This document shows positions 17,143 through 47,296 of a stretch of DNA of 64,000 nt, one piece after another. The stretch is from a virus, in the IMG/VR virus record IMGVR_UViG_3300023074_000001, positions 1 to 64,000 of that record; one strand, written 5' to 3'. The notes under the pieces were generated by a model. It worked only from the letters and a program-made list of their open reading frames with translations. It was not told the origin of the DNA and ran no database searches. Positions within the stretch are counted from its first letter, which is position 1, and each line of letters starts with the position of its first letter. The position numbers and the translations under genes were made by a program.

Positions 17143-17595
17143 GTGATGTCAGGAAGTGTTATGGTTCTTAACGCAGATTTAACCTTGCTGCATTCCGTAT
17201 CTCTTGAGCATTCTATTAGAATGATTGTTCGCGGTGTAGCAGAACTGCATGAAGCAGGTAATGAGTTTATAGGTAATTTTATACGACCTGTTTCTGTCAG
17301 ATTGGTTAAGTACGTTGTTACCACCTGGAGGTACCAAAGGCAGCCTAAGTGGTCTAAGAATGGCGTTCTGAGGAGAGATAACTTTAGGTGCGCCTTCTGC
17401 GAGGGTAAGGCATCTACTATCGATCACATCTTGCCTCGTTCTCAAGGTGGTAAGAACACCTGGAAGAATACTATTGCTGCATGTTCTCCGTGTAACAACA
17501 GAAAGGCTGACAGGACTCCAGAGCAGGCACACATGCCGCTGAAGTTCAAGGCTCGTGTACCGGAGTGGACAGATTTGTATAAGAGGCCAGAGTAA
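17143..17595 (+). CDS. HNH endonuclease (McrA/HNH_5-like)
   Basis: VLRRDNFRCAFC...TIDHILPRSQGG...CSPCNNRK. Confidence 0.9.
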   Translation: MMSGSVMVLNADLTLLHSVSLEHSIRMIVRGVAELHEAGNEFIGNFIRPVSVRLVKYVVTTWRYQRQPKWSKNGVLRRDNFRCAFCEGKASTIDHILPRSQGGKNTWKNTIAACSPCNNRKADRTPEQAHMPLKFKARVPEWTDLYKRPE

Positions 17596-19696: not shown

Positions 19697-19725
19697 TTGA
19701 CAGACCACGCAAGATGATGTAATGT
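19697..19725 (+). promoter_or_regulatory. SigA-type promoter for first tRNA operon
   Basis: TTGACA-17bp-TAATGT. Confidence 0.75.
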
Positions 19726-19780
19726 AGTACTTGTAAGCGAGAGAAATAGAACTAACAGCCGAAATCATCGCTTACATCAT

Positions 19781-19856
19781 ACGGGTATATGGCCTCACGC
19801 TACGAACGTGTTGAAAGCCTAATGGATACATGCAGGTTCGACTCCTGTTACCCGTG
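19781..19856 (+). tRNA. atypical tRNA-Arg(ACG) lacking a normal D arm
   Basis: Acceptor ACGGGTA/TACCCGT, anticodon arm CACG-CTACGAA-CGTG, T arm GCAGG-TTCGACT-CCTGT. Confidence 0.65.
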
Positions 19857-19951
19857 CTTAGGGTTTGCCAGTAAGTGAATAATGTAGTAGGGTAAGCTTC
19901 GGCTATGCTACTACATTATCTTTATCCCTGCCTAGGCAAAACTGGCTCCAT

Positions 19952-20645: not shown

Positions 20646-20717
20646 GCGGGGTTAGTATAAAAGTAATTATGCGACGCTTCCAACGTTGAGACACCGGGGC
20701 AGTACCGGTACTCCGCT
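20646..20717 (+). tRNA. tRNA-Gly(TCC)
   Basis: CGACG-CTTCCAA-CGTTG; variant T loop GGCAGTA. Confidence 0.85.
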
Positions 20718-22344: not shown

Positions 22345-23004
22345 ATGCAAGTTTTTGAATATCATAAAATTCCAGGGCCGTTTAAGCGTGCAACTGAGGG
22401 AGTTAATAAGAACCAGGTCATTGCTTGGCAGTGGTCTAATCCTGAGCTGGAGTATCTAGCAGATGTGCCATGGATTTTTACAGAAAAGATTGATGGAACT
22501 AATATCCGCATCATCTGGGATGGGTATTCTGTCGAGGTACGTGGACGTACTGATCGCGCTAATCTTGCACCTGATCTGGTAAAGACTTTGTTTGCCATGT
22601 TTCCTGAGGAGTTGATGGAGCAGACTTTCGGGGCTAACCCGGCTATTTTGTTTGGTGAAGGCTATGGTCCAGGTATCCAAAAGGGCGGCGGCAACTATCG
22701 TTCAGATAAGAGTTTCATTCTTTTTGATGTGCATATCGGTGGTTGGTGGCTTATGCGAAACTCTGTAGAGGATATCGCTAAGTCTCTAGGAATCGATGTT
22801 GTACCTGTCGGAGCCTCCTGTACGCTTAGGGAAGCTATTAAAGATATGGCAGCTTTAGACTTCATTGACTCTATGGTTGCTGAGACTCCTATGAACATTG
22901 AAGGTATGGTAGGTACTCCTAAGATTCCCCTGTTCAATCGTAAGGGCGAACGAGTCATCGTGAAACTCAAGGGTTGCGATCTCTACGGACTTGAGGTAGG
23001 CTAA
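22345..23004 (+). CDS. ATP-dependent RNA ligase (Rnl2-like nucleotidyltransferase domain)
   Basis: Motif I EKIDGTN, FGEGYG, LFDV, EGMVG, VKLK. Confidence 0.85.
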   Translation: MQVFEYHKIPGPFKRATEGVNKNQVIAWQWSNPELEYLADVPWIFTEKIDGTNIRIIWDGYSVEVRGRTDRANLAPDLVKTLFAMFPEELMEQTFGANPAILFGEGYGPGIQKGGGNYRSDKSFILFDVHIGGWWLMRNSVEDIAKSLGIDVVPVGASCTLREAIKDMAALDFIDSMVAETPMNIEGMVGTPKIPLFNRKGERVIVKLKGCDLYGLEVG

Positions 23005-25809: not shown

Positions 25810-25878
25810 GCCCCTGCTATAGGATATAGACTCAGGTCTTCTAAACCAGATGAGAAGGTTCGAATCCTTCCAGGGGCG
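25810..25878 (+). tRNA. tRNA-Arg(TCT) with short D arm
   Basis: GCCCCTG/CAGGGGC acceptor; CTTCTAA loop. Confidence 0.82.
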
Positions 25879-46695: not shown

Positions 46696-47206
46696 CGTGA
46701 ATAAAAATCATGATGTTGAAGACCTGTTTAACGCATTTGTTGGATACATTTTTCTTGTAGGAATAATTTTTGGCATTGTAGTTCTGGCAGTACTCGTACT
46801 AATTATCTGGCTACTCTTCACCCTCGTTTAAAGGATCATTATGGACAAGGTATTTACCTGGATTTTTAACAACTTCGGTAAGCTTTGGATCGGTGCAGCA
46901 GTACTTGGTCTTGGCATTACTGGAGTAGTTGTTTGGGGATTCATTATGCTCGTTCTGCATTTCACCTGAGGAGTTTATTTTGCCAGAAAAGAAAGACCGC
47001 ATTCGTACCAAGAGCGATGAGCTAGGCGTTCAGGTTAAAGGCGCAACCACTAGAAAATTGATCAAGAATCAAAAAGCTGGTACCGCTGATTTTCGAGATG
47101 ACCCTGATCGAGATGGCGGAAATACTCGTACTAGTAGAGGCTGACAATAGCTTTTACCTGGAGAAACTGATATAATTATTTAATGGCCTGCTCACGCAGG
47201 TATCTC

Positions 47207-47296
47207 GGAGAGCACCGCATGAGGTCATGCGACTAGTCTTGAAAACTAGGGTATCGGGTTAGTAGCCGGATAGGGGATCGTTACCTCTGCTCTCCT
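47207..47296 (+). tRNA. tRNA-Ser(TGA)
   Basis: CTAGT-CTTGAAA-ACTAG; long variable arm; variant T loop. Confidence 0.85.

What the first reader, a model, noticed from the sequence alone, without database searches (positions are those of the whole stretch)
19781..19856. tRNA-Arg(ACG) with its D-loop-like segment on the wrong side of the anticodon arm
Seen: a 76-nt RNA with perfect acceptor and T arms and a CTACGAA anticodon loop. Only about 8 nt (TATGGCCT) occupy the D-arm position. A D-loop-like string GCCTAATGGATA lies 3' of the anticodon arm. Known: the D-loop GG contacts the T loop, and A20 is the ArgRS identity element. Inference: a rewired tRNA that rebuilds the elbow from the variable-arm side, possibly evading host tRNA nucleases. 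Standard tRNA finders would probably miss it.
Basis: partly seen in the sequence, partly recalled or inferred. Interest (0 to 1): 0.75.

Follow-up and report, generated by a model that had tools for sequence, protein, structure and literature searches.

The report
Phage arginine tRNA with permuted core
This 76-base gene of an uncultured soil phage is very probably a working arginine tRNA in which one D-stem strand and the D-loop lie after the anticodon arm and pair back across it, a non-cloverleaf layout shared by many phages that gene finders mostly miss.

Summary
Window 19781-19856 (+) has a perfect 7-bp acceptor stem, a standard T arm and a CTACGAA anticodon loop. No D hairpin lies before the anticodon arm, and AATGGATA lies just 5' of the T arm. 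ARAGORN misses it, and Rfam tRNA scores 26.3 bits, below the cut-off of 29.

It is not a one-off. Two motif scans of IMG/VR gave 65 distinct sequences with the same layout. The same layout occurs in Streptomyces phage Mildred21, Rhodococcus phage NiceHouse, Xanthomonas phage Xoo-sp13 and Felix O1.

The nucleotides after U8-A9 pair across the whole anticodon arm with the nucleotides just before the D-loop. Two pairs covary as strongly as true helix pairs: 63 of 65 and 65 of 65 paired, with 4-5 pair types each.

All D-arm parts are therefore present but in permuted order. Arg anticodons, A20, non-redundancy with canonical Arg tRNAs and codon use all point to a real tRNA-Arg. Expression and charging are untested, and nuclease evasion is speculation.

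Seven literature searches found no description. This scan had already found the same family on other DNA.

The parts
19697..19725 (+). Possible promoter TTGACA-17 nt-TAATGT, 55 nt upstream of the tRNA
   Evidence: The pattern occurs once in the window and in 0 of 100 shuffles. A stretch 85% identical lies beside the genome's other tRNA cluster at 83078-83110(-). The tool's sigma-70 scan did NOT call it, because the -10 hexamer matches only 3 of 6. Low confidence.
19781..19787 (+). Acceptor stem, 5' strand ACGGGTA (positions 1-7)
   Evidence: 7/7 Watson-Crick pairs with 19849-19855. All 7 pairs covary in the family, but members were selected for 7/7 pairing.
19788..19789 (+). U8 A9
   Evidence: TA is invariant in 65 of 65 family members and was not part of either search pattern.
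19790..19793 (+). TGGC: 5' strand of the long-range D-stem equivalent (topologically positions 22-25)
   Evidence: G19791:C19819, G19792:C19818 and C19793:G19817 pair; T19790.T19820 is a mismatch. In the family the two core pairs are paired in 63 of 65 and 65 of 65 sequences, with mutual information 1.57 and 1.45.
19794..19794 (+). Single connector nucleotide C (position 26 equivalent)
   Evidence: Alignment column 15: C 35, G 15, A 12, T 3 of 65.
19795..19811 (+). Anticodon arm: stem TCACG/CGTGT (U27.U43 mismatch plus 4 Watson-Crick pairs), loop CTACGAA, anticodon ACG at 19802-19804
   Evidence: All five stem pairs covary in the family. U.U at 27:43 occurs in 12 of 65 members.
19812..19816 (+). 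Purine-rich linker TGAAA between the anticodon stem and the returning D-stem strand
   Evidence: Linker length is 4 nt in 46 members and 5 nt in 11 of 65. Composition is 75% A+G, and TGAAA occurs in 6 members.
19817..19820 (+). GCCT: 3' strand of the D-stem equivalent (topologically positions 10-13)
   Evidence: Pairs with 19790-19793.
19821..19828 (+). D-loop AATGGATA (A14 A15 U16 G18 G19 A20 U20a A21)
   Evidence: Sequence. A follows GG in 12 of 13 Arg members that no search pattern forced, while T follows GG in 6 of 6 non-Arg permuted members (read by eye). The assignment of canonical numbers is inference.
19829..19831 (+). Connector CAT; T19831 is the position 48 equivalent (possible partner of A15)
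   Evidence: T precedes the T stem in 18 of 18 members of the first scan, whose pattern did not force it.
19832..19848 (+). T arm GCAGG-TTCGACT-CCTGT
   Evidence: GGTTCGA was part of the search patterns, so its invariance in the family is by construction.
19849..19856 (+). Acceptor stem 3' strand TACCCGT and discriminator G73; no encoded CCA (CTT follows)
   Evidence: No CCA-adding enzyme family (PF01743) was found in the phage genome.

Best explanation
Window 19781-19856 encodes a functional elongator tRNA-Arg (anticodon ACG) with all standard tRNA modules, but its D arm is topologically permuted.

The order along the RNA is:
- acceptor 1-7 and U8-A9;
- one D-stem strand (equivalent to 22-25) and one nucleotide (26);
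- the anticodon arm;
- a 4-5 nt purine-rich linker;
- the other D-stem strand (equivalent to 10-13) and a normal Arg-type D-loop (A14 A15 Y G18 G19 A20 ...);
- 2-4 nt ending in U48, then the T arm and the acceptor 3' strand.

The short D-stem equivalent therefore encloses the anticodon arm and stacks on it as one interrupted hairpin. The D-loop emerges next to the T arm, where G18-G19 can still dock on the T-loop, U8 can still meet A14, and A20 is still offered to arginyl-tRNA synthetase.

Shown here: the sequence, the family, the covarying pairs, the association of A20 with Arg anticodons, and non-redundancy with canonical Arg tRNAs.

Inferred:
- the L-shaped fold;
- 5' and 3' processing and CCA addition by host enzymes;
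- charging by the host ArgRS;
- A34-to-I editing, so that the tRNA reads CGU, CGC and CGA;
- origin by duplication of the D-arm and anticodon-arm segment followed by loss of the outer halves.
For: 1. Family.
- blastn found same-layout genes in Xoo-sp13, Stenotrophomonas phage CM1, Mildred21 and NiceHouse.
- The 65 sequences of 72-82 nt all show the layout. Six others (69, 86, 90, 91, 94 and 95 nt) were dropped by length.

2. Structure, on a MAFFT alignment not fitted to any structure (A1).
- 93.9% of cells pair, against 59.3% in shuffles and 37-46% with slid partners.
- The covariation score is 0.923 against 0.231; 0 of 500 shuffles reach it.
- Long-range pair 12:45 is CG 33, GC 15, UA 11, AU 4 and unpaired 2.
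- Long-range pair 13:44 is CG 30, GC 25, AU 5, UA 3, UG 2.
- In an all-against-all mutual-information ranking these two pairs come 4th and 6th, among the true helix pairs. The best non-helix pair scores 0.65.
- U8 and A9 are invariant in 65 of 65 without being forced by a pattern.

3. Arg identity.
- Of 90 covariance-model hits of at least 45 bits in 100 loci, 86 carry Arg anticodons: TCT 49, ACG 14, TCG 13, CCT 9, GCG 1.
- A follows G18-G19 in 12 of 13 Arg members that no pattern forced.
- T follows G18-G19 in all 6 permuted non-Arg members (Ile GAU x2, Ile UAU x2, Val UAC, CAU).
- A20, C35 and A/G73 are the arginine determinants named in PMC9976931 (passages read). The window has A19826, C19803 and G19856.

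4. Use as a decoder.
- In 31 loci that hold both a permuted Arg and an ARAGORN-called Arg tRNA, only 2 share an anticodon. One of those two is ARAGORN's call of the permuted gene itself.
- Shuffles give 10.2 +/- 2.2 shared anticodons; 1 of 10,000 shuffles is that low.
- This phage has no other tRNA for CGN. ARAGORN on the whole genome finds only Arg-CCT, and Rfam adds an Arg-UCU at 25810.
- CGT, CGC and CGA together make 53% of its 1689 Arg codons.

5. Context.
- The gene is the first in a same-strand tRNA region.
- The model scores it 75.6 bits, against at most 33.5 for the genome's other tRNAs. This sequence was in the seed alignment, so its own score is partly by construction.
- No phage ArgRS was found (PF00750), so a host enzyme must recognise it.
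Against: - There is no expression, processing or charging evidence, and no RNA run holds this DNA.
- RNAalifold on the same alignment predicts only the acceptor, anticodon and T helices, not the long-range helix.
- Only two long-range pairs are consistently Watson-Crick. The flanking positions are mostly U.U (45 of 65) on one side and Watson-Crick in only 31 of 65 on the other.
- The single-sequence minimum-energy fold is not tRNA-like beyond the acceptor stem. Its z-score is only -1.65, and 13 of 200 shuffles fold as well.
- The anticodon stem has a U.U mismatch and only 4 Watson-Crick pairs.
- Rfam tRNA scores below its cut-off.
- The invariance of AAYGGAW, TG and GGTTCGA in the 65 sequences is forced by my search patterns.
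- The predominance of Arg is biased, because the loci were fetched with an Arg-type D-loop motif.
- The acceptor was selected to be 7/7.
- Discriminator bases vary (G 22, T 22, A 21).
- The three-dimensional argument rests on recalled knowledge of canonical tRNA geometry, not on a model.
Confidence: 0.8

Rival explanations
1. The permuted core is an adaptation, not a neutral variant. It keeps ArgRS, EF-Tu and ribosome recognition but alters the connectivity of the D region, so that a host tRNA-targeting nuclease or modifying enzyme that reads the canonical D-arm no longer acts on it. This extends the first reader's idea. It is compatible with the best explanation and adds a motive.
For: - In this work the layout was seen only in virus records, in phage genomes, and in 14 bacterial assembly loci, 8 of which are dense tRNA arrays.
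- The window's tRNA region holds an RNA ligase gene (phrog_548, E 2.1e-21, 22345-23004), the kind of enzyme used in T4 tRNA repair (recalled).
- Phage tRNAs that evade anticodon nucleases through loop changes are in print (PMC10264068, title and abstract start only).
Against: - No defence system that targets tRNA-Arg through its D arm was identified or tested.
- The anticodon loop, the usual nuclease target, is the ordinary CUACGAA.
- Canonical Arg tRNAs with other anticodons sit beside permuted ones in the same arrays, which argues against a general need to avoid the canonical fold.
- The RNA ligase says nothing about this particular RNA.
Confidence: 0.15
2. It is a tRNA-like RNA that is not used in translation. 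It could be a decoy or sponge for ArgRS, RNase P, a nuclease or a modification enzyme, or a processing or punctuation signal in the polycistronic tRNA transcript.
For: - No charging or expression data exist.
- The layout is non-canonical, and the score under the general tRNA model is below its cut-off.
- The same phage carries other odd structured RNAs between its tRNAs (earlier notes; not checked here).
Against: - A decoy would not need an anticodon that complements the canonical Arg set, yet only 2 of 31 loci share an anticodon, against 10.2 expected.
- It would not need A20 to track Arg anticodons.
- It would not need a 7/5 acceptor/T branch with a standard T-loop, or conserved U33 and purine 37 (52 of 65 loops are CUNNNAA).
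- The phage would otherwise lack any tRNA for the codons that make up 53% of its Arg codons, while it encodes tRNAs for the rest.
Confidence: 0.08
3. It is a pseudogene, a rearrangement relic or a chance look-alike of a tRNA.
For: - ARAGORN does not call it.
- The single-sequence folding z-score is weak.
Against: - 65 distinct sequences from unrelated phages keep every helix through compensatory changes.
- The same gene is kept full-length in 252 GenBank phage records of the Felix O1 type alone.
Confidence: 0.01
4. The transcript is cut and re-ligated into the canonical order, as happens for permuted tRNA genes of red algae. The mature RNA would then be an ordinary cloverleaf.
For: - An RNA ligase gene lies 2.5 kb downstream.
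- Permuted tRNA genes that are processed to normal tRNAs exist in Cyanidioschyzon (PMC3728597, abstract start only).
Against: - Restoring the canonical order would need an internal segment to be excised and reinserted, which means three cuts and three joins. No bulge-helix-bulge-like motifs were seen.
- The covarying long-range pairs and the conserved linker lengths are explained directly by the unprocessed RNA folding as it stands.
- No search for splice motifs was run.
Confidence: 0.02

Closest known systems
Canonical class I bacterial and phage tRNA-Arg (Rfam RF00005), e.g. Felix O1's annotated tRNA-Arg(ACG) at NC_005282 28168-28243 and E. coli tRNA-Arg(ICG) (recalled)
   Same: - 7-bp acceptor stem, 5-bp T stem and a UUCGANU T-loop.
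- Anticodon loop CUACGAA, identical to the loop of the Felix O1 gene.
- U8, and an Arg-type D-loop with G18 G19 A20.
- C35 and G36, with a G73 discriminator.
   Different: - The D-stem strands are separated by the whole anticodon arm, and the D-loop follows the anticodon arm.
- There is no separate 4-5 nt variable loop. Instead a 4-5 nt linker lies after position 43, and 2-4 nt lie between the D-loop and the T stem.
- The general tRNA model scores it 26.3 bits, against 39-74 bits for this window's ordinary tRNAs.
D-arm-lacking mitochondrial tRNAs of metazoa (e.g. [quoted passage not shown]
   Same: There is no D hairpin between the acceptor and the anticodon stems; a short connector lies there instead.
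   Different: - The mitochondrial tRNAs have lost the D-loop and, according to the review, gain flexibility from the connector.
- Here the D-loop (G18 G19 A20), U8 and a standard T-loop are all kept, and a D-stem equivalent is re-formed by long-range pairing.
- The setting is bacterial translation, not mitochondrial.
Circularly permuted tRNA genes of Cyanidioschyzon merolae (PMC3728597, listing only) and permuted two-piece tmRNA (Rfam RF04321)
   Same: Modules of a tRNA-type RNA are encoded in a non-standard order.
   Different: - Those are whole-gene circular permutations that are resolved by processing into a normal tRNA or a two-piece RNA.
- Here the permutation is internal to the core and is inferred to persist in one continuous mature RNA.
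Allo-tRNAs and (8/4) or (9/3) tRNAs of bacteria and phages (Mukai et al. 2017, PMC5389517, passages read)
   Same: These are natural non-canonical tRNA architectures found in bacteria and phage tRNA clusters that standard annotation overlooks.
   Different: - They change the lengths of the acceptor and T stems but keep the cloverleaf order of arms.
- The paper's text has no match for 'D-loop' or 'tRNAArg' that describes this layout.

Membership tests
tRNA (Rfam RF00005, canonical cloverleaf) | Score at or above the family's gathering cut-off (29 bits) | tested here: not met
   The window element scores 26.3 bits. Of 22 family members in 20 loci, 11 pass at 29.5-40.8 bits and 11 do not.
tRNA (Rfam RF00005, canonical cloverleaf) | D hairpin (stem 10-13/22-25 closing the D-loop) between position 9 and the anticodon arm | tested here: not met
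   Only 6 nt lie between U8-A9 and the anticodon stem, and the model alignment deletes 15 D-arm positions.
tRNA (Rfam RF00005, canonical cloverleaf) | 7-bp acceptor stem, 5-bp T stem with a UUCRANY loop, and a 7-nt anticodon loop with U33 and purine 37 | tested here: met
   The anticodon stem has one U.U mismatch plus 4 Watson-Crick pairs.
Bacterial tRNA-Arg identity (A20, C35, A/G73; PMC9976931) | A at position 20 of the D-loop, C35, and discriminator A or G | tested here: met
   The window has A19826 after G19824-G19825, C19803 and G19856. In the family A20 tracks Arg anticodons: 12 of 13 Arg members against 0 of 6 non-Arg members. Numbering position 20 in a relocated loop is inference.
Bacterial tRNA-Arg identity (A20, C35, A/G73; PMC9976931) | Arginylation by ArgRS | not testable with these tools
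   No biochemical data. The phage has no ArgRS of its own.
   G19791:C19819 and G19792:C19818 pair. R1 scores it 75.6 bits, against at most 33.5 for the other tRNAs of the genome. This sequence was in the seed.
D-arm-lacking (mitochondrial-type) tRNA | Loss of the D-loop and of its G18-G19 contact with the T-loop | tested here: not met
   AATGGATA with GG and a canonical T-loop are retained. The contact itself was not tested.
Permuted tRNA gene processed to a canonical tRNA (Cyanidioschyzon type) | The 3' half is encoded upstream of the 5' half, joined through a circular intermediate | tested here: not met
   The acceptor 5' and 3' strands are in normal order at the two ends of the gene. Only the D-arm parts are reordered.

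The most novel reading that the evidence does not exclude
Phages maintain a second natural solution to the tRNA L-shape. A permuted-core fold arose by duplication and loss in a tRNA-Arg. It has since spread to Ile, Val and CAU-anticodon tRNAs and to phages of Actinobacteria, Proteobacteria and others. It is kept because the changed backbone path through the D region makes these tRNAs poor substrates for host tRNA-directed nucleases or modification enzymes, while ArgRS, EF-Tu and the ribosome still accept them.
Probability: 0.15. Interest if true: 0.92.

Novelty: new variant of a known kind. Interest (0 to 1): 0.8.

Why it matters

If these genes are charged and used, they are natural non-cloverleaf tRNAs working on bacterial ribosomes. 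They would show that the order of the D-arm strands is not essential for ArgRS, RNase P, EF-Tu or decoding.

Practical consequences:
- Phage tRNA inventories, and codon-usage arguments built on them, undercount Arg (and some Ile, Val and Met) tRNAs.
- Some 'hypothetical protein' calls lie over tRNA genes. Examples are NiceHouse gene 178 and the start of Felix O1 ORF45.
- Mildred21's gene is labelled tRNA-Phe(gaa), although its loop reads UCG.
- The layout offers a ready scaffold for orthogonal tRNA design.

The question is directly testable, because Felix O1-type, phi92-type and 121Q-type coliphages carry a member.

Tried and rejected
- Hairpin in the 21-nt segment after the anticodon arm (ATG-GATA-CAT in the window). 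Rejected: other members, such as those with ...AATGGATGAAAAT, cannot form it, and no column pair inside that region has high mutual information together with pairing.
- Single-sequence minimum-energy fold. It is not conserved and not tRNA-like beyond the acceptor stem.
- RNAalifold. It did not recover the long-range helix, so that helix rests on pair counts and mutual information only.
- Expression. The look-up of sequencing runs listed no RNA holder. It listed two DNA runs of leaf-litter metagenomes, one of which may be the source.
- Phage-encoded ArgRS or CCA-adding enzyme. None was found.
- blastn of an IMG/VR member of the UCG subtype (L062) against GenBank phages gave no match at E 1e-8.
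- My first regex for the base after GG mis-set the register, and the second sometimes caught the stem instead of the loop. The 12 of 13 and 6 of 6 counts come from reading the printed segments by eye.
- The tool's promoter scan found no sigma-70 site upstream. The TTGACA-17-TAATGT site is my own reading.
- Rfam was not run on the last 17.7 kb of the genome (L376). That part was covered only by ARAGORN and by model R1.
- Literature. Seven full-text searches and term look-ups in four papers found no description of this layout.
- PMC10690425 lists a candidate structured RNA (DNAVirus_2961) that overlaps an ARAGORN tRNA-Arg call. Its figure and supplement could not be seen, so overlap with this family cannot be excluded.
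- Subscription journals are not covered by these searches.
Full report
**The sequence.** Window 19781-19856 (+) reads, in order:
- acceptor 5' strand ACGGGTA;
- TA;
- TGGC;
- C;
- TCACG, CTACGAA, CGTGT;
- TGAAA;
- GCCT;
- AATGGATA;
- CAT;
- GCAGG, TTCGACT, CCTGT;
- acceptor 3' strand TACCCGT;
- G.

The acceptor stem is 7/7 Watson-Crick. The T arm is standard. The anticodon loop is CUACGAA with anticodon ACG.

ARAGORN finds 23 tRNAs in the window but not this one. The Rfam tRNA model aligns it end to end at 26.3 bits, below its cut-off of 29. To do so it deletes the D arm (15 model positions against 4 nt) and inserts 17 nt in the variable region. The single-sequence fold is unremarkable: z -1.65, with 13 of 200 shuffles folding as well.

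**The setting.** The window is the first 64 kb of a 135,654-bp IMG/VR virus record with direct terminal repeats.
- Genes near the element include a UvsX-like recombinase, an HNH endonuclease, a tail-fibre-like protein and an RNA ligase.
- The best protein match of the recombinase is to Microbacterium phage Magritte at 39% identity. An actinobacterial host is therefore only a guess.
- The element opens a same-strand run of tRNA genes.
- ARAGORN on the whole genome finds 33 tRNAs, and only one is Arg (CCT, 82927-83000, minus strand).
- Rfam adds a further odd Arg(UCU) at 25810-25878 and nothing for CGN codons.
- The last 17.7 kb was not scanned with Rfam.

**Homologs.** blastn against GenBank phages found stretches that run from the anticodon loop to the 3' end in Xanthomonas phage Xoo-sp13, Stenotrophomonas phage CM1, Streptomyces phage Mildred21 and Rhodococcus phage NiceHouse. 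Read out, all four have the same order of parts.

Two motif scans of IMG/VR then widened the set.
- The first scan tied an NCG anticodon loop to an AAYGGAW motif close to GGTTCGA. It stopped at 120 loci, of which 13 held 74-77-nt genes with a 7/7 acceptor and this layout. One more had 6/7. The rest were chance matches in coding DNA.
- The second scan put no condition on the anticodon. It stopped at 116 loci.
- Over all loci then held, 88 matches passed a filter of 7/7 acceptor pairs and at least 4/5 T-stem pairs, giving 71 unique sequences.
- I kept the 65 sequences of 72-82 nt and dropped six (69, 86, 90, 91, 94 and 95 nt), which are ordinary or other elements.

**Structure.** MAFFT aligned the 65 sequences in 89 columns without reference to any structure. 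On my proposed structure, 93.9% of cells form standard pairs. Column shuffles give 59.3%, and slid partners give 37-46%. The covariation score is 0.923 against 0.231, reached by 0 of 500 shuffles.

The acceptor helix was selected for in full and the T helix for 4 of its 5 pairs, so the informative helices are the other two.
- All five anticodon-stem pairs change on both sides.
- Long-range pair 12:45 is paired in 63 of 65 sequences (CG 33, GC 15, UA 11, AU 4).
- Long-range pair 13:44 is paired in 65 of 65 (CG 30, GC 25, AU 5, UA 3, UG 2).
- In an all-against-all mutual-information ranking these two pairs come 4th and 6th (1.57 and 1.45 bits), among the true helix pairs. The best pair outside a helix reaches 0.65.
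- The flanking positions are weaker. The outer one is U.U in 45 of 65 sequences. The inner one is Watson-Crick in 31 of 65.
- RNAalifold predicts the three ordinary helices but not this short one. The long-range helix therefore rests on covariation, not on energy.
- In the window it is G19791:C19819, G19792:C19818 and C19793:G19817, with T19790.T19820 mismatched.

**Topology (inference).** The strand after U8-A9 runs into the 5' strand of the anticodon stem, as positions 22-25 do in a cloverleaf. The strand after the linker runs into an A-A-Y-G-G-A loop, as positions 10-13 run into the D-loop. The order is therefore:

8-9 | 22-25 | 26 | anticodon arm | linker | 10-13 | D-loop 14-21 | short connector ending in U48 | T arm.

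- The D-stem equivalent and the anticodon stem become one interrupted hairpin, which is how they stack in a normal tRNA.
- The D-loop still ends beside the T arm.
- U8 and A9 are invariant in 65 of 65 sequences without having been selected.
- The base before the T stem is T in 18 of 18 members of the first scan, which did not force it.
- The linker is 4 nt in 46 sequences and 5 nt in 11 of 65, and it is 75% purine. It may take the place of the variable loop in the D-stem groove. That last point is speculation.
- A duplication of the segment holding the D arm and the anticodon arm, followed by loss of the outer halves, would produce exactly this order.

**Is it a working tRNA-Arg?** Four lines of evidence bear on this.

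1. Anticodons. A covariance model built from the 65 sequences found 100 hits at E 1e-5 or better in 100 loci. The 90 hits of at least 45 bits all have the layout.
   - 86 carry Arg anticodons (UCU 49, ACG 14, UCG 13, CCU 9, GCG 1).
   - 4 do not: Val UAC, CAU, Ile UAU and Ile GAU.
   - Mildred21 alone has four permuted genes: Arg UCG, UCU and ACG, and Ile GAU. NiceHouse has two.
   - The predominance of Arg is biased, because the loci were fetched with an Arg-type D-loop motif.

2. Identity. [quoted passage not shown]
   - Among members that no pattern forced, A follows the GG in 12 of 13 Arg genes.
   - T follows the GG in all 6 non-Arg permuted genes (read by eye).

3. Non-redundancy. In 31 loci with both a permuted Arg and an ARAGORN-called Arg tRNA, only 2 share an anticodon. 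One of those is ARAGORN's own call of the permuted gene. Shuffles give 10.2 +/- 2.2, and 1 of 10,000 is that low.

4. Need. In 132 crude ORFs of this phage the Arg codons split as follows: CGT 30.0%, CGC 11.4%, CGA 11.8%, CGG 3.0%, AGA 28.9% and AGG 14.9%, of 1689 in all.
   - An inosine-modified ACG tRNA would read 53% of them.
   - The phage's UCU and CCU tRNAs would read most of the rest.
   - The phage has no ArgRS and no CCA-adding enzyme, and the gene encodes no CCA. Host enzymes would have to process and charge it.

None of this shows expression. No RNA run holds this DNA.

**Detectability and annotation.**
- ARAGORN of 65 bare sequences and 1 of 65 with 40-nt flanks, as a 90-nt Arg(gcg).
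- The Rfam tRNA model passes its cut-off for 11 of 22 members in 20 loci, at 29.5-40.8 bits. Most ordinary tRNAs in the same loci score above 41 bits, up to 69.
- In GenBank the Mildred21 gene is labelled tRNA-Phe(gaa), although its loop CTTCGAA reads UCG in the family register.
- The NiceHouse gene lies under a 'hypothetical protein'.
It is unannotated and overlaps the start of ORF45. The phage's annotated canonical Arg is ACG.
- That gene is kept over at least 80% of its length in 252 GenBank phage records, including Felixounavirus, phi92-like, 121Q-like and Klebsiella phages.
- In 40 rows spread down the ranking, 27 have no feature there and 5 records have no annotation. A further 5 have a CDS, 2 say tRNA-OTHER and 1 says tRNA-Leu. 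None says Arg.

**Bacterial assemblies.** The anticodon-free motif scan of one genome per species stopped at 120 loci. Fourteen of them hold the layout.
- Eight of the 14 sit in arrays of 4 to 27 ARAGORN-called tRNAs within at most 8 kb.
- Most are MAG contigs.
- Named isolates seen are a 15.8-kb contig of Rhizobium rosettiformans and a 464-kb scaffold of Brucella cytisi.
- I did not test whether these are prophages.

**Literature and earlier notes.** Seven full-text searches and look-ups in four papers found no description of this layout.
- The 2020 review of non-canonical tRNAs has no occurrence of 'phage', 'permut' or 'rearrang'.
- One candidate RNA in PMC10690425 that overlaps a tRNA-Arg call could not be inspected.
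- This scan had noted the same family several times on other DNA, including an Ile(UAU) member. I had reached the permuted-core reading before that look-up (note). I re-derived the evidence on my own alignment.

**Rivals and limits.** A pseudogene or chance match is excluded by the compensatory changes and the wide conservation. A non-translational decoy does not explain the anticodon complementarity or the A20 pattern. Re-ligation into canonical order would need three cuts and joins, and nothing in the sequence suggests it. The adaptive reading, evasion of host tRNA-directed enzymes, remains open and untested.

The main weaknesses are:
- there are no RNA or charging data;
- only two long-range pairs are solid;
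- part of the apparent conservation was forced by my search patterns;
- the three-dimensional argument is reasoning from the canonical tRNA, not a model.

Noticed in passing
window 25810-25878 (+): A second odd arginine tRNA: anticodon loop CTTCTAA (UCU) with a miniature D arm (TATA-GGA-TATA, a 3-nt loop). Rfam tRNA scores it 30.4 bits, and ARAGORN misses it.
   Followed up: partly
window 47206-47296 (+): A 91-nt tRNA-Sec-like RNA (RF01852, 42.8 bits, below the cut-off of 47). By RNAfold it has an 8-bp acceptor stem, a 6-bp D stem with a 4-nt loop, a long variable arm and a 4-bp T stem. The anticodon loop is CTTGAAA (UGA, serine codon UCA). It resembles the (8/4) tRNA-Ser of phages described by Mukai et al. 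ARAGORN misses it.
   Followed up: partly
window 20646-20717 (+): A tRNA-like gene (Rfam tRNA, 40.7 bits in the E-value search) with loop CTTCCAA (UCC, Gly) and an unusual T-loop, GCAGTAC. It is not called by ARAGORN and not listed in the gathering-mode scan.
   Followed up: no
window 22345-23004 (+): An RNA ligase gene (phrog_548, E 2.1e-21) lies inside the tRNA region. An HNH endonuclease lies at 17143-17595.
   Followed up: no
window 19733-19775 and 19879-19919 (+): Hairpins flank the tRNA. The leader has GTAAGCGA...TCGCTTAC. The trailer has a perfect 12-bp stem, ATAATGTAGTAG...CTACTACATTAT, followed by CTTTAT. The word TAATGTAGTA also forms the -10-like part of the upstream promoter-like site.
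   Followed up: no
Mildred21 73703-73779 (L248:54-130); L216:10637-10713(-); L158:2038-2113(-); L191:743-823(+); L223:6091-6167(+); L185:4651-4744(-): Permuted-core tRNAs with non-Arg anticodons: Ile GAU, Val UAC, CAU, Ile UAU, Ile GAU and Ile UAU. Several share the TACC-C...TGAAA-GGTT core with Arg(ACG) members, which suggests identity switches within the permuted lineage.
   Followed up: partly
L011, L086, L104, L119 (about 90 nt each): An element with a 7-bp closing stem and two T-arm-like hairpins in series (GGGGTTCGAATCCC and ACAGGTTCGAGTCCTGT), present in four viral contigs.
   Followed up: no
L085:1919-2015 (+): A G+C-rich hairpin followed by what looks like an acceptor stem, a D-loop-like AATGGAACAT and a T arm, with no anticodon arm.
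   Followed up: no
L131:3273-3778 (+): A tmRNA gene (Rfam, 106 bits) starts 24 nt after a permuted tRNA-Arg(UCU). Y-RNA-like (YrlA) weak hits lie beside permuted tRNAs in L187 and L141.
   Followed up: no
own genome 81819-81898 (-) (L373:17819-17898): A further tRNA (Rfam, 39.9 bits) with a long D region and loop TTTAATG, not called by ARAGORN.
   Followed up: no
L110:756-835 (-): A second Arg(ACG) gene of ordinary arm order but with T-loop TTAGAGT lies directly beside a permuted Arg(ACG). This is the only real case of a shared anticodon among the 31 loci.
   Followed up: partly
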